64,000 nucleotides of DNA from Lytechinus pictus. Lineage: Eukaryota. This document shows positions 3,001 to 40,700 of the stretch, piece after piece (the first letter of the stretch is position 1; the number at the start of each line of letters is the position of its first letter). Made by a program: the position numbers and the translations under genes. The notes under the pieces are model-generated. The model was not told the DNA's origin. It saw only the letters and a list, made by a program, of their open reading frames with translations, and did not search any database. The DNA lies in NCBI RefSeq assembly GCF_037042905.1, contig NC_087250.1, forward strand, positions 11,596,001-11,660,000. Reading direction: 5' to 3'.

Positions 3001-3349
3001 TGGACCAATACTATATTTTTGAGATAAAATAATTACATGTATTCTGTTAGTATATTGAATGTGGTTCAGGTTGTTGGACAAAGAATATGATTTTCAAAAT
3101 AAATCTCAAATTCGTAGACCTATGGTGGATAAAAGGGATTAATCAACACAGTCATTATTTGGGATTAATAAGTTACCTTGAAGTTACCTTGATGGCCACA
3201 TCTCACTGTTTTCACGACGAGGGTGTACAGATGAGTGTGGCAGGGTTAAGGAGGCTCTTAGAGCCCATTTAAAAACCCAATATTGATAATAATGTTAATA
3301 GTAAGTAGTTAGTTAGTAAAAAGTTTTAGATGGTATTTTATCGACTTAC
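1..3349 (-). other. Intron of onecut between the CUT exon and the homeodomain exon (extends beyond window start)
   Basis: GTAAGT donor at 3349-3344 on the minus strand. No CKRKE/homeodomain-coding ORF is seen in 1-3349. Confidence 0.88.
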
Positions 3350-4400
3350 CAGCTAATCTGAGCGCCGACATCCTCTGGAATTCTGGTTCTTGGAGCCACT
3401 TCCACATCCTCCTGAAGGTTTCCCTGCCGCTCTTGAGTTTACTCCAGGGTTTGGGGTTCCTCAGGAGGTCAGACAGTGTCCCTTGACTCCTACACAAGAC
3501 CCTTTGGGCAAACACGGCTTGGGGTATACTGTATCTTTTGAGTTCGCTCGTTACCCTCGCTGCGATTTCTTTCGTGTTGATCTCCTCCCCGGCTTGCCCG
3601 GTGTCCCTGGACGAAACGGAGCTTCGATCACCGCTTCGACTTCCAGGTGGCGGTATCGACGGTGACGGTGCGTGATGGGGGTGACCGGCTAGTCCGTTCA
3701 GGACCATAGGCGTGGTTAGACCAGTTCTTTGGGTATGATGATGCGTGAAGCCCCGCATATGTTGGGCGTTATGGGTGAATTGGTCATAGCCGTTCATGGA
3801 CGCGGCATACCGGGGCTCGCTCGGCGAACAGGTGCCGTGGTGGGGGCTACCATAGCCCCCCATCGCCTGATGATGTCCGTAACCGTTTAACATGGAATTG
3901 GCAGCCATTGACCCGCCGACCCCGACACCCATCCCCATATTCATACCTCCAAGTTTATCGTAGTTATTCATGGCGAGGTTCGAACTGTTCATCAGCGAGA
4001 ATCCCGTGCTAGCGTTCGTATCATGTCTCAATTTATCGGCGACTGTATTAATAGGCGGCAGCGGCTGAAGAGGGGTTAACGTCGTATAACTTCCAGACGA
4101 CATGCTATTAATACTCGGCGCTCCTTGAAATGTATTCATGCCAAGCGCCGATCCCATGCCATATTCGGCGGCCGAGGCCCCGCGAAAATCTGGCTCCAGC
4201 ATGCCTCCAAAGCCGGTAAAGCTCCCCGAGCGGGAGTGGCGACTCACAGCGAAATCCGTGGCGCTGAAGAAATCGCCCGGGTTGATGCCGGGTGCTGTTG
4301 AAGACGAACTGGTTTCAGGAACACTGTGCAAAGATGCAGCCGTAGCGCTGTCACTAAGAACGCCACTTGTCTCTAAGCCGACTAACTCGCTAGAAAGCAT
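3350..4400 (-). CDS. onecut: ONECUT/HNF6-class CUT-homeobox transcription factor, first coding exon (N-terminus, STP box, CUT domain); continues in an exon outside the window
   Basis: The ORF encodes the ONECUT STP box (SYTTLTPLQPLPPI) and a CUT domain (EEINTKEIAARVTSELKRYSIPQAVFAQRVLCRSQGTLSDLLRNPKPWSKLKSGRETFRRMWKWLQEPEFQRMSALRLA). A canonical donor G|GTAAGT follows 3350 (intron starts at 3349, phase 1), at the intron position known from other onecut genes. Confidence 0.97.
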
Positions 4401-5400
4401 TTGTACTACTGGGCAGGGGCGGTTAGCGGCGTTCGCAAGCGCGAGCCGCTGGACCTCAAGATTCGAAGAAAATGATAATAGATGATAAAATGATAATGTG
4501 ATCGCCTACGCCAAGTTCATGGCCTCGACCAGCGCACGGACGTACGCGTGTGTGTGCTGTGTGTCGGCCAGTAATATTCCCTCGCAAGTCCTTCGCGTCT
4601 TGGCGACCAATTTCTTCCAAGCGACTACCCTTCTCCTTTTTTTTAACGAAACAAGCTCGCTCGAGGAATCAGCTGGCAGCGAGCGAATTGTTGACTCAAA
4701 CAACCCCCAGCGAAGTCGGCCCTGGTTAGCGCGAAGTCCCCTGCTCTTCTTTTAATACACAGAAAAAGAAAAAGGCATTGGTGTAGAGAATCCGTATTAT
4801 TATCACAAGCCCCCCTCACAGTGGCTCCACTGGTAGTATTTGAAACACTGCCGTTAGATGACTCACAACGGAGAAAAATTATTCGAGACGACGAAGAAGA
4901 ATATATGAAGAAATATTGCTTGGCTGGTCGCTAGGAGAAGAATTCCTTTTCGTAGACAGTGAATTAACGAGGCGTGATCAGTAAGCGAGGCACTGGGAGC
5001 GTAGCCGCTTCGCTTAGAATCCACTTCGTATTTAGACAGCTGTATTGGGTCCCGTACAAAACGCGCTAGATTTTTTGTTCTCACCCTGCCTCGACCCCTT
5101 AAAAACTCGAACTGGCTTCAACTATCAGAAACCATACACATCTATTGTAATAACCCGGTTCCCCACTCTCTATCTCCCTCTCTCCCACTCAATAACATTA
5201 CAACAAACCCCACTATGGGATTCAGTTCACTCAACCGTGTATTGAACCTCTTTGTTACGTTTCCATCGCGCATGCGCTATTATCTCTCAAACTACCTGTT
5301 CAAAGTAGCAATTCTATTGTGTTGAGTTTGTGTATGACAACTTGGTGTAATGGATTGCGGGGCTATATAGTTAACAAAGCAAAGGCTTAAGTTTTGAAGA
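4401..5400 (-). promoter_or_regulatory. onecut 5' UTR / proximal promoter region (TSS not determinable)
   Basis: CpG-rich, repeat-free sequence directly upstream of the ATG. Palindromic NRF1-type site GCGCATGCGC at 5268-5277. Confidence 0.6.
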
Positions 5401-9914: not shown

Positions 9915-12242
9915 TACGCAGCAAAAAGTGTGTTGTACGACACCAGTCATTTTACCCCGATGTTAAATATGCGGTGTTTAATCAAAACCCATGCACGTTA
10001 TTATAGCACCTTTGTATTGTTTTTACTTTAACTCTCTTTGGTGTTATATTCATACTGTAGGGTGCTATGCTAACATCTTAGGGCGTGGTCCCCTAGTGAC
10101 AGACACTGGTGTCAATTTTAAAACCCTGGACCTTTACACCTTTTCTTTACTCTTGTTTATATTTTCACACAGCTGGTAAAGGTGCTTATATTCCATGCTA
10201 GATACCTTTGTACTGTTGTAGGTAAAGTTCTCCTAAAGAAGTTCCTACAGCATTAATCTTACTACAACGTGTAATGTTACATGTATTGTGTAAAATTTGA
10301 AAAAAATATGTATTTGGTGCATGAAACATGAGAATGTTTTGTATTATCCCCTTAAAAACAGACCTGTCCTGTTAAATTGCACATAATTTCAGTTTAAAAC
10401 AATTTATATAATGATCCTGTAATTTTTTTGTAAAGTCTTTTGTTTTCTTATGTTTTCAACTGTGTATCAACCACGCGCAAAGAGGGAGAGAGAGAGAAGA
10501 AAGGATACAGTGAAGATTGTACTCCAATAAAAGTTAAGAGGAATTAAATTTGGAAAATATTACGAATTTTCTTACCATATCTTAAGTCCTCAGTCTGCCC
10601 CCATTTTCCCTATCCATCCATGTCTTCCACGCCCCCCCCCCCTCCTACCCGCTGTTTCTCACTGGAACTTTCTCATGGTTTCTGTATTTTGTTCATATAG
10701 ACAGTTTAATTAATTCCTTTGTCAACCCCTCATCATACCAGTTGATGAGCTCTAAAAAATACCTGTTTCATTTCTAAGACGATTAGGCATTTATGGGGGC
10801 AATTCTTTACCCCCTCTGTGGGGTCAATTCTTTACCCCTCTACCACAAAAAACAGATCCGTAACAAATGCTTAATCCCCTTGTCATCCTATTCAAATGAT
10901 CCCGGGAAACAAGAGTGAATTTAACCAACAAAAACTTTTCTCTTGGCTCAGAAAGGTTTTCTCTTGATAAACCCTGAAAAGCGAAGATGAGAAATCATGT
11001 ATTTACAAAAGACCGGAGTACCTATGAAGATAAAGAACGCGAAATAGTTCTGCGGCGAAGCGCAAAATGTTGTAGTAGGGTCTTTCAAAATTCGGGAGCG
11101 TGAACGAAGGATTAGCGGATTACACGCCGGAGAGTTGTGGGAGAACAATAAGCATATACTCGTTAATACAGAAGATCTCCTTCGGGGGAAAGGGGGTGAG
11201 CAATTTCCCCCCTTTCTTCTTATTTTCAATAGAAGATCCTACGATGATTAGGGTGACGTGGCATTAAATAAAGTCCCGAAGCTCAAATTCACACCAAGGT
11301 TTAATTACTTATTTGTTACTGGAGATGAAATCGCTTATTTCTATAGTATATATCAAGAATGTAATTTCTGCCAGGATGCACGACTAAATCTGTTAATCTA
11401 TTATAATCATGATTATGTTACATGGACAAACATGATGGGTACCATAATACACGGAAGATATATGTGACAGTCAAAATTATTAAGTTACACCTATTATTAT
11501 TCTATTTAAGGTTACACTCTGAAAATCATAAAAAATAACATATTCTTCCACCATTTCTGAAGATAACTGTGTAAGAAAATTTTGAGCATTAATTTTGTTA
11601 TAAAACATGTAAAATGTCAGTAGTAAATTGTGAAATAAGCGTGATGAGAGACATGTAGAAACATGAATGAAAGAGAGGATATACCTAAAAACATATATGG
11701 AAAATTTAGACTTTTTTTTCTTTCAATCTTTATTGAAAAAAAATAATCACAGTACAAATCAAACAAATCAACAAGCTATATATTTACACGATCAAACAGA
11801 GCAGCACTTACTAACATGTAGGTATATACTTGTCAAGACAGATACATAAAACAAATTAGATATCAAATCTCCACGTTTTAAAATGTACAGGTAATTTACC
11901 ATTTTTCTTCGCCAAAACATATTCAATATCCTTAATACCTTTGATACGAGCTTTGAATTCCACAATATAGGGGGTTTTGTTATTAAATTTACTGGAAAAT
12001 GTAGACTTTTATTTCATCGACCTATATGAGTTTTATTTGAAAGACACTCACACTGACTGAAAAACAACGAAGAAAATGATTTAAAAAAACAAAACAAAAA
12101 AGAGTAACGAGTAAGGAGAAGACAGAAGTGGTGCAATAGTCAGCAGAGCAAAATTTTAAAGAATATGAGAAAGAAGGAAAAAAAGACCGATAAAAGAATT
12201 ACGAGGACCGGGAAATAAGAACGTAAAATAAAGTAGAATTAA

Positions 12243-30206: not shown

Positions 30207-30444
30207 TACTGTAAAAACTGTGGTGTTAAAACTGACACCAGTTGGTGTTTAATAGAGGACCACACCCCGAAGTGTTAAAATTACACCCTAGAGATTGAAC
30301 ATAACACCAAAGAGTGTAAATGTAACAACCAAAGGTGTTGTAATAACACCTATATGTGTTAAACTAACACCATCAATTTAACACCGGAGTAAAATAACTG
30401 GTGTGGTCCTCTATGTACACCGGTTAACACCACAGTTTGCTGTG
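30207..30444. mobile_element. CAC-ended MITE family D
   Basis: ACTGTAAAAACTGTGGTGTTAA...TTAACACCACAGTTTGCTGTG; colinear with the 46871 and 51882 copies. A degenerate copy lies at ~34680-34890. Confidence 0.82.
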
Positions 30445-30501
30445 TGAAAATTCAAATTCAATCACATTTTTTCAGGAATAAAACGGCCGTGCCTAATGAA
30501 G

Positions 30502-30910
30502 CGGGGTCGTGTGGTCTAGTGGTTCGAGTATTGGACTCATAATCCCACGGCTGTTTGTTCGAATCCCTGCTCTGTCATTGTCTCCACTTTGATAAAAGAC
30601 CCGATAATAATATCTGTCGTCTATAATATCAGCCACTATCAGTGACTGATCAGTCACATTTGCTCTACGGCGGCCGTACGGCCAGACGAAAACAGCCGTT
30701 TTATTCATTTTTATTCCAGCAACCTATATTTAGCTGGTACAAAAAATGTTAAAACGGCTGTTTTCGACTCGCCGTACGGCCGCCGTAGAACAAATGTGAC
30801 CGAGGTATAACTTAGTCGTAAAAATGTTCCTATATATGTAATTGGTTATATACCAGCTTGGCGTTTCCCCGTAAAAAAACTATACTGCCCAGTTTCTTGC
30901 GGGAGTTACC
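30502..30910 (+). mobile_element. tRNA-derived SINE interrupted by a palindromic MITE (~30651-30805)
   Basis: TGGTCTAGTGG A box and GTTCGAATCC B box. Internal inverted repeats GTCACATTTG.TCTACGGCGGCCGTACGGC ... GCCGTACGGCCGCCGTAGA.CAAATGTGAC. Confidence 0.75.
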
Positions 30911-33108
30911 ATCAACAGAACAGAATCGCATTTTGGTAGTATGAGGGTTAAACCGAATGCTAAATGACGAGGGTGCTGAATTTTCGCCATGAATCTACAT
31001 GAAGTAGCTCTACTTAAAACTAATCAATATTATCCTCGTCAAGTCGGGACTCCACCCGATGGTTAGGTAACCAAAAACTCGTTCCCGAACGCTGTGTAAA
31101 TATTTTCACTTCGTCAGCGGGGGTTAAGGCCGGGGACGGTTAGATGGCATTCGCCACGACTGAGCTTTCCGAAATGACTTTGAACGCGTATGTGAGGTCC
31201 TTCGTAGTCTGCAAATTATGCATAAGCCATGTCTCATTTCCTTGGAAAATATGGACCATCCTTTACGATTTGGTAGCTCTCTATTTTGTCATTGAAACCA
31301 TAAACGTCATGAGCAAATTTTTTTAAGGTAGCCAGAAATGGCGTATGGGTCTTAGGACCTTTTTAATACAAAAAAATCCAAATTGTGGTGGCTTTTCAAA
31401 TAATAATCTGAAAATATCATCTTTTATCACCTTTTATTTTAATTTTCTTTCTCTTTTCTTTTTTTCTTGGGCCCCCGAGCCACCCCATCTTGTACGCCAG
31501 TGATAGAAACTTTTTTTAGCACTATTTATTTGAAAACTTTAATTGAGTTGTGAAGTATATTGATTTGACGTTATTCAAATACATCATCATCGGAATTACG
31601 AGGCTCATCATCACAAAATATTGCGCAAAATGTACACAGAATTCCTAACAACACCAGTTTGAGTAAGAAAAGGTGCTAAATTTTAGTAAAAAAATTGTGT
31701 TTATTGAGTAAGATATTAAGTAATAAGCGTGATTCATTGATAAAAAGTTACACAACTTCGCTAAAAAATAAATACTTTAGTGTTATTTCACCCAAGAAAT
31801 ATATGCGTGTTTAGGCTCAGGCATTATTAAATTTGGGAAACCTCTTAAGAGAGCGTATAGGCAATATATGACAGTTCATTCAAACGAGTTGATTCATCCA
31901 AAAAAATTAATGATCATGCATGGCCCTTGGCAGCAGGAAGGAGGATTCGCCCCAAAGAACAATCTTGAAAACTTACATTTTTTAACTGAAAATGTGTACA
32001 AATCACACCAAAAGTATGCATGAAATCTTTCAATTTGACTTTACAAAATGCAAAAAGTGCTCCAATGACAAGCTCAGTCACTTCGCCCCCTCGCTTTCAA
32101 TTTTTTTTTCGTAAAAGTTTACGCGCCCTGCCCCCCATAAAGAATGTCTGAGTACGGCCATCTTAATGATTACTCTAAACAGTTTATTGAAGAGCATAGG
32201 AACTTGAAGAAGAAGAGTTTTTTTAATAAAATGATTGTTAACCATACCTATGTTTTCCTTTTAAATTAAAAACGTTGGCAGACAAGCACGCCCATATATC
32301 ATTTGATAAATTTCTTGGAACAAACAATCAATAAATTCATGCAGGATTTCTTTAAAGACCATTAACAAAAACTATATGATTTTTCAAATATTGAAAGGCA
32401 CTTCATAATTAACATTTCATTCATTTCTCATTGATTTACATTCCTTTTTGTTAAGTCTATGTAGCGCTACTTCATAACTCTTTATCATGTATAATAATAA
32501 AAGTAATGAAAACGCCGAATGTAGAGGCTTTCCATCTCCCCATACCTAAACAATCAAACAAACTGTCAATGAAAAAAAAATGCAAGTCAGAATTGTCTTA
32601 ACATGATATAATGCTCATTAATGCAACTCCAATGCGCACACAAAGAGTGATGGGTCATTCATACCAACGAAACACACTCCAGATCGATCAAACCTATTAC
32701 GTTATTTGCAATGGCATATCATTGGCCGGTTTGGAGTTAGTTTCGTTAGTCTGACTGGGGCATCATGTATGCGGGGAAGCTCTGAAAGAAGGCATTGTAA
32801 TGATAACGCTCTCTTCGGTATTGGTTCCAATACGAAAGCTATTCAATGAGTACGGGAAAAAAAATCTCAGATTTGTATTTGGCAGGGTGGAAATCTGCTC
32901 GCTCACAAACCAAGATCGATTAATCCATTCCCATCTTATAGTTTGGCCGGTGTTCTATTGATACTCGATAAAGATGATTAAATGACGACAAAGTTCGCTT
33001 TTCAGAGATTTCCCTGTGATTATTTTGAGAGCTTTCAAAGCATGAGAATAAGAACAGACATTAAACACTAAAACACATTAAGCAATATGCGAAAATCTTT
33101 ACTGTTGT

Positions 33109-33350
33109 TCACAGTAAAAACGCTTTGTTTATCAAAATAAAAACAACACTTTACTTTATAAACCTCACCGTATACTTGCTTAACAAGTTTATACAAGACT
33201 AGTGTTTAAAATCTTAAACAACAATATTAAATAGTTGATATCTAATTCTCAATACATTAGGCATGGTCGTTTAAACCGCTTAACAACTACTTATATAGGT
33301 TCCTAACAGTAAACGGCGTTGTATGAAAATTAAACGTCGTTTTTGCTGCG
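33109..33350. mobile_element. CAC-ended MITE family F
   Basis: CACAGTAAAAACGC...GTTTTTGCTGCG. Relatives are split by insertions at 35143/41260-41400 and 59146/60606-60723. Confidence 0.65.
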
Positions 33351-33935
33351 TGCTTGAATATATACACTGCAATGAGCGTGTCAAACCTACACTAGTCGGT
33401 GCTCTGAATCTGGGCGGATAGCATCAAATATTTGGACACGTGTTAACTTCATAGTTTATTTGAACACCCATTGGTGTAATGATGATATATTGTTGTTTGT
33501 TATTTTAACACTTTTTATATATCGTGTATTATAACTCTAATATGTCATCTGTTCATAGTAGTTTTACTGTGTATATGGTTCGGGGAAAGGCACTGGCGTA
33601 AAGATTTCCACGATCAAAAGAAGAAAAAGGGAAAATGAAACAAAATGAAAGCAAAAGAGGTGAAATATGACATCATTCTCTGAATATTGTATCAAAATAT
33701 ATCACAAAATTGGATTTTGGTATTTAACAGATGGCATCATTTTAGACATTTATCCCCATACGATATAGTCTGGCCTCTATATAATATACCCAGGCAATAA
33801 TTATGGTAAGATTTATGGTTTGGTGTAAAAGCATTTGGTATACTTCTTAGAAGTCTAAAACCACATGGACTAAACCCACTCGGTCTACTGTAATTTTGGT
33901 CTAACTGCCGTTGGTAATTGATCTTCATTACACTT

Positions 33936-34108
33936 AGGGCCTTTTCACACGTGAATCTTGAATCATCATTGTGATGATGATTGTAGGCGTCCGTGATTCT
34001 AATCACGTTTCAATTTGGTTTCACACGTGCTAAAAATTCGTCATTAGCCTTTTTTTTTCACTGAAATAATCATTCAAATTACGATTTTTTTCACCGTGTG
34101 AAAGGGCG
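33936..34108. mobile_element. Harbinger-like MITE, diverged
   Basis: GCCTTTTCACAC ... GTGTGAAGGGC termini. Confidence 0.55.
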
Positions 34109-36243
34109 GTAATTATCATCTAGTCTATTGTCCAGTTGTGCTGATTTCCACCTTGTCTATCTGTCATAATTCATTACTTTGTCAAATGAAAATTCGGTAA
34201 ATACAGCAGTTCAACAACAGTTCTAACCAGAGGGACCAGAAAAAAGTGAAAACAGAGGAAAAGGGTCTATAGCCTAAATGGGAATTAGACGAAAAGTTGA
34301 CTAGACCAGAGGACCAAGTGGTAATTGGACCCAAAAAGTTATTAGACGAACTGGTTGTAGACAAAATTGGATTGGAGTTGACCATCGGGTATGAAACTAA
34401 ACAGGCAGCTGACAAAGTGCTTGTAGGCCAATAGACAGTTTACAAATTGATGTATCCAGTAACTGAAGTTAGCGGAAGAAAAAAAAGGAAAATCTCGGCG
34501 GAAGGTGGGTTGATCGAATAATCTATATCGTAAGCGAGTAAGCGTGCTTTCTTCATCGATATTCAATAAGTGCGATTACAGACTCGTGAATTCGGATTTC
34601 CGATCGCTTCCGATAGCTCTTAAAGGTTCATTCCACGTCTGAAATGACAGATTGGGTCGCTGCACACTATACTGGACATGCTGGAGAAACTGGGGTGTTA
34701 AAACTTAAACCAGTCGGTGTCCTACCTAGAGGACTAAACGCTGAGGTGTTATTTTTTACACCAAAAGGTGTAAACGTATAAGAACCAAAGGTGTTGTAAT
34801 AACATCCATAAGTGTGTATCTAACACCAGAAATGTGACACCGGAGTAAAACAGCGGGTGTAGTCCTTAACACCATTCAACACACCAAACTTTGTTTTGTA
34901 AGAAAAAAATAAGTTTCTCCCTAAATATAACAATGATAGCCCCTTTTGGGAGTGATCATACTTTCACTCTAAATTTAAAAAGGGTGCAGAAATGCACCTA
35001 TCCGTTAGTGTTTGCACCCGGAAATGCTCTACAAGGTGCAATTTTGTACCTTTTAGGGTGCACAATATTCAACCTAAAGCATGAAAAAGGTTCAAATTTG
35101 CACCTTCCTTATAAACGTTTCATCAAATGCCTAATGCATATACGCAGTAAAAATGCTTCTATATGAAATGGTTTTTAGTGGATCCCCTCATTTCCATATC
35201 AGATTCTGTTAAGCCTATTTTACAAATGTTTTGGAACTTGTAATTGAAATGCACGTATCAGCTATTGAGTGATCTCAATACAGTTTGGCCAAGATAACAT
35301 CTTTTTGCTGGACATGCTTGTTTACATTAATACAGCTTTTCTTAAACAACATGGTAATTCAAAAGCGCTGCTTTTTACACCTTGTTTAGAATCCTCTGTA
35401 TACTCGGCAATTCAAGGTGTACATGTCTTGTGATCATTTTATTTTACCTTTTTTAATGTTGTTTTCAAAAGAAATATAAAACAGATGGTACTTCCATTAG
35501 AATACTGAATATACTAGCGTACTGTTAAGGGGAAAGATAAGCTGTATTTATGTACACACATCGTGACTTTCGATTATTATCATTTTTTTACTTGTAATTT
35601 GCAGGTTACAGGCTTATGTGAAATATCACTCCTATTATCGGTGATATACACGATTGACATGTTGAGAACCTGAGATTCTCTTGTATTCTTTTCAGGAAAA
35701 ACTGAATAAATTTCTCTGTTATCGAATACACTAAACAAAATAACTATGGTATTGCTTTTACATAAATGCTTGTTTCTTCACTGTCATAATTTACGATATG
35801 CTGATATGACTAGTATGTACTTGTTTTGAGATATTACTCCCAAATATTTTTCTGAAGTTTTCTTTGCCAAACATATCCACCTCTGTATTTCTAATGAGGA
35901 AAAGAATATTGCTTACATTATACGCTTACAATGAGATACACTGCATGATTGAATTTATGCAAAAAAACAACAACAATTCACTCTTTCTCCTCCAATCTTG
36001 TTAGTTATTTCTTCTTTTTTGCCAGGACAAACTTGCATACGTCATTGTTTTTTTTTCCATGCTATAAACATGCTAATGGACGCAAAATAACTCTAATTCT
36101 ATTTGTATGGAAAATGAATGTCCTTTAAAATTCTCTTAAAAGTTGCTTTCAAAAATAACTTCTGGTATATTTTCTCCAATGAAAGTGATCTCACTTTGTA
36201 TCATTGTTTATGACCATCCAACTTCAATTCTGCCGAATTCACA

Positions 36244-36506
36244 TGATTTTTATTTTCATTGCAAGTAAAATCACCTCCTCAAACAGTTCAATGCAATGAA
36301 TATAGTGGAATGCCTATGCAAATGAACATAACTTATACAATTCAAACAGTTCAATGTCTTGCAGAGAACTGATTTTTTTTTCTCATTGCAAGTAAAATCA
36401 CCTTTCCAAACAGTTCAATGCAATGAATATATATAGTGGAATGCCTATGCAAATTGTCATCGCTTATTCAATTCAAACAGTTTAAAGTCTTGCACTGAAC
36501 TGATTT
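36244..36506. repeat. Two-copy ~128-bp tandem duplication inside the LINE 5' region
   Basis: TCATTGCAAGTAAAATCACCT...CAAACAGTTCAATGCAATGAATATAGTGGAATGCCTATGCAAAT...GTCTTGCA..GAACTGATTT occurs twice. Confidence 0.9.
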
Positions 36507-37708
36507 TGTATACAATGTCATCATTTATTTGGTTTGTCTGTAATCTGTCTTCCGTACGCTCTTGTCTAACTTGCAAGTAATTTAAATTACATGTAAATGA
36601 GTGTTAATAGAACAGGTTGCATTGCAAGCAAATATCTACATTATTCCAAGAGCACTATTGTATTTTATCAACACCTTGTCCCTTTTCGGATTTAATTGTG
36701 GCATCTCATTTGGTCTTTATGCTTTGTTTGATTGTTTGAAACAGAAAAATTCCTGCAAACAGATAAATGAGGTTCCCATATATAATCATGTCTCCGACAC
36801 ATCACATTATTGTCTACTGAGTTTACCATGCACTATAATTGCATTCTTTTGTATATCTTTCATCATTCCAAAGCAAAAATTTAGAGTGTTTCAATTATGG
36901 TCTGACATAAATACCTTTTTTGTAGCTATATTGCATTCATTGATCAATTAGAATTGAATCGGTTTTAAAGTATACGTATAGGTGTATCGGAATCCCATGT
37001 TAATGAGGATCTCTTTGCTCTTTCAACGACTTCTTTTAAATCACTATTTGTATAACAATTGAGACGTTGTTATGTATATATTTGATCTCGTACTTTTTGT
37101 TATTCACAGCAATGCCCGTATTGCCCTATTACATTATCAATCATTCATGTCTTGCTGACATAGAAGTAAATGCTTTTCTTTATGCATTCCAATCCCATTC
37201 ACAGTTTGATGGCAATTTCCTATTTTTTTTTCTAACTCTGAGAGGCAAGAAACTTTCTATTCAAATTGAAGACGCCTGTTTATTCATGAACAACCACATT
37301 TTGCTCTTGATAATTGTATTTGTTGGAGTTTATGACTCTATAGATGGACTATCCCCTATTCACTGTATATACATATGGATATGCCTATGCAGAAGATATA
37401 CAGGCCCGCTGTTAGTGAAGAATAGAATAATGTAAAGCACGTTAATCATTTAAGGCACTATGATGTAATGAAATCGCCATACCGTCTGGAAAAAATCTCT
37501 ATTACCAGCTGTTAATGGTATTCAAAGGTTTAAAAAGTCATTTCAATTTCATATTATTTTAAAAACTTATTTTACCAAATATTGGACAAAGATATTTCAA
37601 TATTTTCAAAGATCCATCATATAATTTATTTTAATGACAATGATGTAAGCACCAGCCCGAGTCTGTCAGATCGTCACACATAAGTGAACATGTATAACAC
37701 TTTCTTCA

Positions 37709-40700
37709 ATGCTTCTGGCATACACCTTTACTTGCACTCACATGCACCATGCACCTCGGTTACTTCAACGATTGCAAACCAAATCCTATTTATTCTCTTT
37801 CAATAGAGCAGATATACTAAACGGTGAAACTTTTTCTCCCCAGTGTAAATATTATACAGCCAGTGAATTTAATAAGGCTTTTCTTAAAGTAGCTCAAAGT
37901 GATATTCCCGACTACTTTAGTTTAATGCATTTAAATATAAGAAGTTTACCAAAAAACTTTGATACTTTCTGCGAATTTTTATCCACATTAAACACATTTC
38001 CATTTTCTATTATTGGTCTCACAGAGACATGGTTGCATTCGATGTCTCCTCCAATTTACAACATTAATAATTACAACTTCCTCCATACAGATCGAAAAGT
38101 TGGCAAGGGAGGAGGTGTCGCTCTCTATGTACATAAAGATCTTAATTACAAAGTAAGACATGATATTGAACTTCAAAATATAGAATCCTTATTCATTGAA
38201 ATTTCTAACGCTAAAAATAAGAATAAAATAATCGGTGTAATCTATAGACCCCCAACCAATAATGCTGATGTATTTTTAAATGAATTGGAATCTAGTCTCG
38301 AATCAGTTTCTCGAGAAAACAAAAAAATCTATATCATGGGCGACTTTAACATTGATTTGTCCTTTCCCTATACTACAATAGGTCAACATTTTACTAATTT
38401 ATTATCATCATTTGGATTACAACATCTCGTTAATAAACCAACTAGAATTTCTAACATATCAAATACAATAATTGATAATATTTTTTCTAATGCACTTGAT
38501 AAAAATGATAATGGAATAATATACTATGATATTTCAGACCATCTGCCTATTTTTGCAATGTATCCAAATGATAAACGCCCTCACCAACCTAGGGACAAAG
38601 AAAACATAACCAGACGAAATGAAACCCAACGTAATATAGAATCCCTGAAGGTAGACTTGGCTGAAGAAGATTGGCATGATATTTACCTAGAACAAAATGC
38701 AAATGACTCTTATGTAATATTCTTAAATAAACTTCTTTATTATTATGATAAAAACGTGCCATTACTAAGAGTTAAATCGAGCAAAAAGAAGAACAAACAA
38801 CCGTGGGTTACACAAGGTATACTTAAATCCATATTTACTCGGAATAGACTTTATAAAATATCCATTAAATCGCCTACAATTCAAAACATAAATAAATATA
38901 AAAAATTTCGCAACAAATTAACTTCAGTTATCCGCCTAGCTCGCAAATCTTACTTTTCTGATAAAATTGAAAATAACAAAGATAATAAAAATTCATTATG
39001 GAAATCTGTAAATGAGATATTAGGTAAGAAAAAAGAAAGCTATGATAACATTAATTTCGTAGAAAATGGTCAACACTTGCGAAACCCAAGTGATGTTGCT
39101 AATGCCTTTAATAATTTCTTCAATAATATCGGTCCAAATTTAGCTTCAAAAATAGTATCTAATGATAATGACTTTTCTGAGTACTTAAACGACTTTCCGG
39201 AAAATTCTTTATTTTTTAATCCGACTAATACTCATGAGATCTTAGAAATAGTTAGGTTTTTGAAACCGACTAAATCTTCAGGGCATGATGGAATAAGTGT
39301 CTATTTATTAAAACAAATAATTCACTTTATAGCTTCACCGCTCATGCATATTTTTAACCTTTCTCTGTATCATGGCATTGTTCCCGATCCACTTAAGATT
39401 GCAAAAATAATACCAATATATAAGAAAGATGATCCATGTCTTACTTCCAACTACCGACCAATATCTTTATTACCAAGTATCTCTAAAATTCTTGAAAAAA
39501 TAGTTTACAAGCGATTGTATTCCTTTTTTAACAATAATAATATATTAATTCCAAATCAATATGGTTTTAGAGAGAATCATTCAACCGATTATGCTATTTT
39601 ACAATTATTCGACAAAATATCTGATTCTCTCTCTAAAAAAGAACACACTGTTGGGATTTTTATGGATCTATCGAAAGCATTCGATACAATGGATCACCGC
39701 ATTTTACTTTGTAAATTAAAGAGATATGGAATCAGGGGGGTGGTTTTCACTTGGTTCAAAGATTACTTAAGTAATCGACGCCATTATGTTTCTTTCAAAT
39801 CAAAAACATCCAATATTTGTACAATGAAATGTGGAGTACCACAAGGATCGATTTTAGGTCCATTGCTATTTTTGATTTATATGAATGATATTGTAAATGC
39901 ATCTCGAGAATTAACTTACGTTTTATTTGCAGACGATACAAATGTCTTTTATTCCCACAAAGTCTTAAATATACTCGTCCCGACACTTAATTTCGAATTA
40001 AAGAAATTATCAAAATGGTTTAAAGCTAATAAACTCTCCCTAAATATAAGCAAAACAAATTTTATGTATTTTAAACACATTCAAACTAAACATATGTTCC
40101 TTAATATATACATAGATGACATACCTATCATTGAAAAACAAGAAACCAAATTTTTAGGTGTATGGATTGACTCAAATTTAACGTGGAACAGTCACATTCA
40201 CAATATTTGCATGATGGCATCCAGAGGAATAGGAATTTTGTTTAGATTAAAATATCATCTCTCCAAAAAATCATTATTTATGCTTTATAATTCGTTCGTT
40301 TTATCCCACTTATCTTACTGCAACTTAGTATGGGGGTATAGTAGTAAGGTAAAAATAGAAACAATTTTCCGTCTCCAAAAGAAAGCACTCCGCATATGTA
40401 CTCATTCACATTTCATTGCACATACTGATCCAATATTTCACAACTTAAAGACATTGAAAATTGAAGATATTAACATTTATCAAACGGCCATATTTATGTT
40501 TAAATTTTCATCCAATATTATCCCGATTCCATTTCGCAATTTTTTTGTTTACAACAAAGACATTCACAAATATCCAACACGACATTCAATAGATCTTCAC
40601 TTAACCAACCCAAGAATATTACTCGCTCATAAGACAATACGCCACCATGGCCCAGATATTTGGAATGCATTGCCACAGAATATTAAACAATGTACATCTC

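What the first reader, a model, noticed from the sequence alone, without database searches (positions are those of the whole stretch)
35248..37850. LINE whose 5' region lacks ORF1 and looks spliced, with the ORF2 N-terminus possibly split by introns
Seen: ~2.5 kb of AT-rich sequence between the candidate TSD and ORF2 has no ORF1 but several acceptor-like sites (TTGCAG ~35604, TTTTCAG ~35695, TTTTTTGCCAG ~36025, TTCACAG 37109). A GTAAGC donor at 37645 fits two acceptors. Joining to TTTCAATAG (37806) removes an in-frame TAA and gives ATG(37634)-MTMIADILNG...CKYY. Joining to TTTTTCTCCCCAG (37843) gives ...YYFKNLFYQILDKD...YFNDND-CKYY in frame. A separate piece at 37112-37210 (MPVLPYY...DIEVNAFLYAFQ...FD) resembles, from memory, the LPF..D.EF extension preceding the EN domain in Crack-like ORF2s, whereas the unspliced N-terminus (MLLAYTFTCTHMHH) does not. 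Inference: an intron-retaining LINE that may need splicing to make RT while mobilising unspliced RNA. That behaviour is known for Penelope-like elements but is unusual for LINEs.
Basis: partly seen in the sequence, partly recalled or inferred. Interest (0 to 1): 0.72.

Follow-up and report, generated by a model that had tools for sequence, protein, structure and literature searches.

The report
LINE retrotransposon with long non-coding leader
This is a copy of a jumping gene (a LINE retrotransposon) with an unusually long stretch of non-coding DNA in front of its enzyme gene; the proposed introns are mostly not supported, so it looks like a fairly ordinary member of a known kind.

Summary
The boundary holds up. 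The block 35248-41134 interrupts an older repeat whose halves rejoin collinearly, so the 2.55-kb AT-rich leader lies inside the same inserted block as an intact endonuclease/RT ORF2. No ORF1 was found in it.

Splicing is mostly unsupported. ORF2 sits in a clade of 34 proteins, all with short N-termini. The acceptor at 37843 is coding sequence shared with the closest relatives. The 37112-37210 piece scores 2.2 bits against long N-termini, where real pieces score 6.6-24.9. Acceptor-like sites are only slightly enriched (P 0.04-0.05), and there is one consensus donor.

The sister element L001 keeps the 'intron' sequence, lacks the donor and has an ATG at the 37806 'acceptor'. This copy lacks that ATG but has in-frame ATGs at 37709 and 37742, so unspliced RNA can encode the whole enzyme.

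The join 37644>37807 stays open (about 10%): no reads or other copies of this family were examined. Verdict: a CR1-group-like LINE with no ORF1 and a long leader, a new member of a known kind.

The parts
35158..35247 (+). Left (5') half of an older repeat resembling a LINE 3' tail, interrupted by the insertion
   Evidence: 85% over 41 nt to 14216-14176; collinear empty-site alignment
35242..35247 (+). Candidate target-site duplication, left copy (6 bp)
   Evidence: Identical to 41133-41138 and at the split point of the older repeat; not significant alone
35248..37637 (+). Long AT-rich, T-biased leader with no ORF1; 71 ATG triplets and 32% GC in 35248-37800; origin (own 5' UTR or captured) unresolved
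   Evidence: no dispersed window repeats in it, against 1 of 21 other tiles; no Rfam match
36244..36507 (+). Two tandem units of about 130 bp (86% identical) inside the leader
37040..37435 (+).
   Evidence: No Pfam hit; best Atlas score 0.81; piece scores 2.2 bits
37638..37694 (+). Non-coding block conserved with sister element L001 (81% over 58 nt, above the 73% DNA identity of ORF2); likely cis-acting element; lies mostly inside the proposed intron
   Evidence: no stable fold
37645..37650 (+). Only consensus-like splice donor in the leader; not kept in L001
37690..37806 (+). Short upstream ORF (38 codons) from a conserved ATG, stopping at the place where relatives start ORF2; L001 has a frame-equivalent ORF overlapping its ORF2 ATG
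   Evidence: no protein homologues of the L001 frame
37798..37810 (+). Acceptor-like site ending 37806; aligns to the ORF2 start codon of L001, which this copy lacks
37831..37843 (+). Acceptor-like site that is in-frame coding sequence (FSPQ), with F and P shared with close relatives; pyrimidine tract absent in L001
37688..40753 (+). ORF2: 1021 stop-free codons, apurinic-type endonuclease plus reverse transcriptase, catalytic motifs present; in-frame ATGs at 37709, 37742, 37925
40754..41118 (+). 3' UTR, alignable to L001, with AATAAA at 41097-41102 and a terminal 5-bp hairpin at 41104-41119 that L001 also forms
41119..41134 (+). Poly(A) tail (16 A)
   Evidence: same ending in L001
41133..41138 (+). 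Candidate target-site duplication, right copy
41139..41262 (+). Right (3') half of the older repeat, ending in AATAAA and a short tandem tail
   Evidence: 76% over 72 nt to 14097-14030

Best explanation
A young 5.89-kb insertion of a CR1-group-like (L2/Crack-type) LINE that has no ORF1 and carries its own long non-coding 5' leader. It was copied from unspliced RNA by target-primed reverse transcription into the T-rich tail of an older repeat.

Shown: the boundaries, the intact endonuclease/RT frame, the poly(A), the 3' hairpin shared with a sister element, and membership of a clade whose ORF2 starts about 15-21 residues before the YY motif.

Inferred: the leader is the family's own. This copy, or its immediate lineage, lost the clade's ATG by a small mutation at about 37803-37810, which also produced the acceptor-like TAG. 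With 71 upstream ATGs, scanning from the 5' end is unlikely to reach ORF2. The conserved block at 37638-37694 and the short ORF ending at the ORF2 start most likely serve internal initiation or stop-restart coupling (about even odds; an internal promoter is the alternative). ORF2 of this copy would then start at 37709/37742 or at a non-AUG codon, or not be translated. No intron is needed.
For: Split older repeat plus 6-bp duplication fix the block. ORF2 is intact with EN and RT motifs. A tree built without the N-termini places it in a clade of 34 of 112 proteins, support 1.0, all with 68 or fewer residues before the EN domain. L001 (68% aa identity) has an in-frame stop 7 codons before its ATG, so its genomic ORF2 begins there unspliced, and that ATG aligns with the window's 'acceptor'. 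Genomic residues 37799-37843 match relatives (BLOSUM sums 26, 31, 19, 11, -5) where join 2 does not (-22 to -26). The leader lacks the dispersed repeats seen in 20 of 21 other tiles and has a tandem subunit. PMC13343379 section 15 reports recurrent ORF1 loss in the CR1 group and 100-500-bp repeated subunits near the 5' UTR of some ORF1-less elements. Stop-restart coupling is reported for SART1 and proposed for L1 (PMC5972666 passages).
Against: No second copy of this family was seen, so a shared leader is not shown. L001 holds only about 510 nt upstream of its ATG and shows no match above background to the leader before about 37530. A lesion at the start codon of an otherwise unbroken 2.9-kb frame is a coincidence if it is copy-specific. 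The donor and the acceptor are both window-specific relative to L001, and so is the ATG loss, as a newly gained intron would also predict. Acceptor-like sites are mildly enriched. The Met at the start of database proteins is set by gene callers, so only its consistent position is evidence. The short ORF has no homologues among 1.84 billion representatives.
Confidence: 0.55

Rival explanations
1. Same unspliced LINE, but the leader is not the family's 5' UTR. It is either captured upstream sequence (5' transduction or template switch from a host transcript) or what remains of a long inter-ORF region in a 5'-truncated copy of a two-ORF element.
For: L001 shares only the last 100-270 nt before ORF2. 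A 2.5-kb leader with 71 ATGs is awkward for translation. Some distant relatives have an ORF1 directly upstream of ORF2 or several hundred nt before it. 5' truncation leaving ORF2 without ORF1 is described in PMC4120745 (passage). Low CpG (observed/expected 0.53 against 0.94 in ORF2) could mean a different history.
Against: Host DNA in this window is rich in dispersed repeats and the leader has none (1 of 21 other tiles). No ORF1 remnant was found with 42 queries.
Confidence: 0.27
2. A 162-nt intron (37645-37806) was gained in this lineage and supplies the missing start codon from 37634. RT would be made from spliced RNA while unspliced RNA is what gets copied.
For: The only GTRAG donor in 2.6 kb lies 162 nt before a pyrimidine-rich acceptor and gives an in-frame ATG. 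Donor, acceptor and ATG loss are all window-specific relative to L001. There are two branch-point-free but otherwise canonical ends. Human L1 makes a spliced ORF2-only RNA (PMC2896524 passages).
Against: 25 of 122 GT sites would do the same. No branch-point-like CTRAY/TTRAY motif was printed for 37646-37843. The most conserved non-coding sequence lies inside the supposed intron and not at its ends. Unspliced in-frame ATGs exist. The join would leave about 65 upstream ATGs in place. In human L1, splicing inhibits retrotransposition (PMC5860796 abstract).
Confidence: 0.1
3. One reading: ORF2 has a Crack-type long N-terminal extension split over three exons (37112-37210, 37534-37644, 37844 onward).
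For: The frames are open across join 2. Piece 37534-37644 scores 3.3 bits against long N-termini, reached by 18 of 921 random peptides.
Against: Piece 37112-37210 scores 2.2 bits against 6.6-24.9 for 9 real leave-one-out pieces. Join 2 is matched by 143 of 500 random joins and the three-piece product by 139 of 500. The clade lacks the extension. Join 2 deletes conserved residues. No GTRAG donor follows 37210.
Confidence: 0.02

Closest known systems
L2/Daphne/Crack lineage of CR1-group LINEs (PMC13343379, passages and section 15 read; PMC4120745, passages read)
   Same: Apurinic-type endonuclease plus RT in one ORF; AT-rich coding sequence (fish Crack and Daphne about 65-67% AT, PMC7140322 passages); ORF1 often absent; repeated subunit near the 5' UTR in some ORF1-less forms.
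   Different: Short ORF2 N-terminus without the PHD-like or LPF extension of the more distant hits; a 2.55-kb leader; a true poly(A) tail, which PMC13343379 calls unique to Zenon among CR1-group elements. The label 'Crack' is recalled and was not tested against reference sequences.
Zenon elements (CR1 group; PMC13343379 section 15)
   Same: No ORF1 and a poly(A) tail, the two features that paper gives for Zenon.
   Different: Phylogenetic placement with Zenon could not be tested; no named reference was among the hits.
Unnamed clade of 33 database proteins (P0001-P0033 in part, P0040) and locus L001
   Same: 47-71% identity for most, short N-terminus; L001 shares the pre-ORF2 block, the 3' UTR, the terminal hairpin and the poly(A).
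   Different: They have a Met about 15-21 residues before the YY motif and this copy does not. Their 5' regions are unknown beyond about 510 nt in L001.
Human L1 splicing: SpORF2 RNA and SpIREs (PMC2896524 passages; PMC5860796 abstract)
   Same: A LINE whose genomic copies keep usable splice sites and that can make an ORF2-only spliced RNA while full-length RNA is copied.
   Different: In L1 splicing is optional and reduces mobility; here no splicing is shown at all.
Penelope-like elements with a retained 5' UTR intron (PMC8557442 passages)
   Different: They have GIY-YIG endonucleases and pseudo-LTRs. This element has an N-terminal apurinic-type endonuclease and a poly(A) tail, so it is not a PLE.

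Membership tests
APE-type non-LTR retrotransposon (LINE) | N-terminal apurinic-type endonuclease followed by RT in one ORF | tested here: met
   PF03372/PF14529 at residues 81-289 and PF00078 at 579-827; motifs located
APE-type non-LTR retrotransposon (LINE) | 3' poly(A) or simple-repeat tail, no LTRs | tested here: met
   AATAAA plus 16 A; no long terminal repeat among the families shown
APE-type non-LTR retrotransposon (LINE) | Insertion marked by a target-site duplication | tested here: inconclusive
   6-bp duplication at the split point of an older repeat; not significant alone
Crack / L2 lineage | RT phylogeny groups it with named Crack, Daphne or L2 references | not testable with these tools
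   Hits carry no family names; the tree has no named references
   No piece of the leader tested scores like real extensions; 1 of 38 close relatives has such a motif
Zenon | No ORF1 and a poly(A) tail | tested here: met
   definition from PMC13343379 section 15
Zenon | RT phylogeny within the CR1/Zenon clade | not testable with these tools
   No named reference sequences were available
Penelope-like elements | GIY-YIG endonuclease and pseudo-LTR | tested here: not met
   Apurinic-type endonuclease, no GIY-YIG hit; no terminal repeat
Intron-retaining retroelement | Spliced RNA junction at a GT-AG pair retained in genomic copies | not tested
   No reads were laid on the locus
Intron-retaining retroelement | Splice sites conserved in related elements | tested here: not met
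   One sister element only: L001 1-560 has no GTRAG and no acceptor by either rule

The most novel reading that the evidence does not exclude
This LINE lineage has swapped its ORF2 start codon for a newly gained spliceosomal intron (37645-37806). The protein would be made only from spliced RNA while the unspliced 5.9-kb RNA is the one reverse-transcribed, breaking the usual preference of a LINE protein for its own mRNA. The donor, the acceptor and the loss of the ATG are all absent from the sister element, as a recent intron gain would predict.
Probability: 0.1. Interest if true: 0.68.

Novelty: new member of a known kind. Interest (0 to 1): 0.24.

Why it matters
As read here it is one more young LINE copy. 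Its modest interest is a clade with very short ORF2 N-termini, a conserved non-coding block just before ORF2, and a 2.5-kb leader full of upstream ATGs, which raises the question of how ORF2 gets translated. If the 162-nt intron proved real and obligatory, it would be an apurinic-endonuclease LINE that separates its messenger from its template by splicing. That behaviour is documented for Penelope-like elements and is only optional in human L1. I saw no such case for L2/Crack-type elements in the listings of four paper searches (listings only).

Tried and rejected
No whole genome is held for this window, so copy number of the leader and the state of other copies are untested.

Sequencing runs: 20 of 23 listed rows hold part of 33000-42000, with shares 0.31-0.38 for organism A and 0.12-0.18 for organisms B and C; no RNA holder listed on record. 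They fit both 'ORF2 and 3' UTR only' and 'whole element with 1-2% divergence', so they were not used. No reads were laid.

A 16-bp exact repeat at 33210/41290 was considered as the target-site duplication and rejected: it lies about 30 nt beyond the older repeat's tail, not at the element's poly(A).

The idea that the leader is just flanking host DNA next to a truncated LINE (my first reading) was weakened by the split repeat.

The conserved pre-ORF2 block as an RNA structure: z-scores -0.24 to +1.43; no Rfam match. As a conserved peptide: 0 hits for the L001 frame, though small eukaryotic ORFs may not be called in that library.

Searches for more DNA of the close clade gave only L001: metagenome scan, 26 loci; viral contigs, 0, 0 and 1 weak locus; genome contigs, 0 and then the best 80 of 166; 10 genomes by handle, best 47% identity. 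A search for short fragments of the window's own family found none closer than 62% (24 hits of 56 candidates). The window's ORF2 is not in the protein collection from any of three starts.

Earlier findings of the scan: none returned. PMC11203168 (passages) had nothing relevant. Supplements were not read.
Full report
Setting. The window is animal DNA, with a CUT-domain exon at 3309-4505 on the minus strand and many simple repeats. No whole genome is held. One long ORF, 37688-40753 (1021 codons), encodes an apurinic-type endonuclease and a reverse transcriptase with the catalytic motifs in place. It is followed by a 3' UTR, AATAAA, a 5-bp hairpin and 16 A.

Boundaries. I first doubted that the 2.5 kb before ORF2 belongs to the element. 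A self-comparison showed that 35158-35198 and 41194-41262 match two successive parts of one repeat copy at 14216-14030 on the minus strand. Rejoining the flanks gives one collinear alignment, score 118 against 71 and 67 for the halves. Random partners reached that score in 6 and 4 of 1500 trials; the very high maxima suggest picks overlapping the reference copy, but I did not check each one. The two halves are the best non-self matches to each half of the reference in the window. A 6-bp duplication sits at the split (35242-35247 and 41133-41138); alone it means nothing, with 7 copies in 7.8 kb. One event is likely because ORF2 is unbroken, but nested insertions are not excluded.

The leader. 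It is 32% GC and T-biased, with 71 ATG triplets and no ORF1: 0 of 42 upstream ORFs from 25 related loci hit it, and the 131-codon frame has no Pfam or convincing Atlas match. It holds a 2 x 130-bp tandem unit and none of the window's dispersed repeats, whereas only 1 of 21 other tiles is free of them. That favours element-own sequence over ordinary host DNA but does not prove it.

Splice signals. Acceptor-like sites are mildly enriched: 5 against 2.0 (P 0.036) and 11 against 6.4 (P 0.052) under two rules. There is only one GTRAG donor, against 2.0 expected, so the upstream acceptors have no consensus partner. Open joins are common: 25 of 122 GT sites would bring an in-frame ATG to 37806, and 22 of 122 would give 30 or more open codons to 37843.

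What relatives show. The best 120 of 1001 protein hits split into a close group (47-71% identity) and a distant group (mostly 45% or less). In the close group, 28 of 38 show the YY-type motif at least 8 residues in, a median of 18.5 residues from the start (one outlier at 131 is a truncated protein). Only 1 of 38 has an LPF-type motif, against 47 of 82 in the distant group. A tree of 112 proteins (the 111 of 120 hits of at least 930 aa plus the window), built from the endonuclease onward, puts the window in a clade of 34, support 1.0, all with 68 or fewer residues before the endonuclease. In an alignment of the window with 25 of the 38 close hits (13 left out, mostly short or near-duplicate), the window has Phe in the column where the others have Met. 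Gene callers impose the Met, so only its steady position counts.

DNA is available for one sister element, L001 (68% aa identity). Its ORF2 frame opens 7 codons before its ATG. That ATG aligns with the window's acceptor at 37806. L001 keeps the supposed intron collinearly, including a block of 81% identity over 58 nt, more than the 73% of ORF2 itself. It has no GTRAG donor and no acceptor by either rule in its first 560 nt.

Against a profile of 56 long N-termini, piece 37112-37210 scores 2.2 bits (54 of 1153 random window peptides reach it; nine real pieces left out in turn score 6.6-24.9). Piece 37534-37644 scores 3.3 bits (18 of 921). Join 2 and the three-piece product are matched by 143 and 139 of 500 random joins. 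The 15 genomic residues before 37844 share 7, 5, 4, 3 and 1 identities with five close relatives; the residues join 2 would put there share 1, 0, 0, 1 and 0. The acceptor at 37843 is therefore coding sequence. Join 1 keeps those residues and scores like the unspliced frame against the profile of 30 short N-termini (26.2 against 25.2 bits), so it is neither supported nor excluded. Splicing is not needed: in-frame ATGs at 37709 and 37742 would give the whole protein with a short extension.

How it most likely works. Shown: a block ending in poly(A), with a 3' hairpin shared with L001, inserted in the T-rich tail of an older repeat. From established knowledge (recalled): the endonuclease nicks the target and the RT copies the RNA from its 3' end, and L2-type RTs recognise a 3' stem-loop. 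Inferred: this copy or its lineage lost the clade's start codon by a small change at about 37803-37810, which also made the acceptor-like TAG. Scanning through 71 ATGs is implausible, so ORF2 is probably reached by internal entry or by restart after the 38-codon ORF 37690-37806. That ORF's ATG lies in the conserved block, and its L001 counterpart overlaps the ORF2 ATG. Stop-restart coupling is described for SART1 and proposed for L1 (PMC5972666, passages). No homologue of that short ORF was found and the block does not fold unusually, so this step is about even odds against an internal promoter.

Against my reading. No second copy of this family and no reads were examined. A lesion exactly at the start codon of an otherwise intact frame is a coincidence if it is copy-specific. 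The donor, the acceptor and the missing ATG all differ from L001 together, which a newly gained intron would also produce. I put that at about 10%, and capture or truncation as the source of the leader at about 27%.

Comparison with what is known. ORF1 loss is recurrent in CR1-group elements, no ORF1 was detected in vertebrate Crack elements, and some ORF1-less elements carry 100-500-bp repeated subunits near the 5' UTR (PMC13343379, passages and section 15). The same section gives 'no ORF1 plus poly(A)' as the mark of Zenon, which this element also shows. Clade placement could not be tested without named references, and 'Crack' is a recalled label. Splicing of LINE RNA is known in human L1, including an ORF2-only RNA (PMC2896524, passages), and it reduces mobility (PMC5860796, abstract). 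Intron retention is a mark of Penelope-like elements (PMC8557442, passages), which this is not. Four searches for intron-retaining LINEs listed no L2/Crack case; I saw listings only.

Verdict. A new member of a known kind, with a real and fairly long ORF-less leader. The split-N-terminus model is rejected, and one short intron remains an untested minority possibility. Interest 0.24.

Noticed in passing
window 3309-4505 (minus strand): Exon of a CUT-domain transcription factor (Onecut-like by recall); the LINE lies about 31 kb on its 5' side.
   Followed up: partly
window 37724-37752 and 40763-40795; L001 420-460 and 3540-3580: A CAC-rich motif (core CACATGCAC) occurs both shortly before ORF2 and just after its stop codon in both elements; function unexplained.
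   Followed up: no
window 41104-41119; L001 3905-3922: Terminal hairpin just before the poly(A), with the same stem and different loops in two elements 68% identical in protein.
   Followed up: partly
window 35248-35255; L001 about 3932-3940: The element's first bases (AATGCAC) are the same as the bases that follow the poly(A) in L001; could be chance, a target preference or a tandem arrangement. No longer match was found.
   Followed up: partly
window 34681-34906, 30209-30450, 46907-47106, 51884-52084, 9937-10044: A dispersed repeat family of about 200-250 bp with at least five copies in the window.
   Followed up: no
window 30650-30803, 41769-41867, 43485-43727: Inverted-repeat elements with 42-73 nt arms, MITE-like.
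   Followed up: no
window 33210-33228 and 41290-41308: A 16-bp exact (19-bp, 95%) direct repeat 8 kb apart, with a 12-bp partial copy at 35340; not at the element's ends, unexplained.
   Followed up: partly
L027-L106: At least 166 stretches in prokaryotic genome assemblies encode LINE-type ORF2 proteins, most likely eukaryotic host contamination in metagenome-assembled genomes.
   Followed up: no
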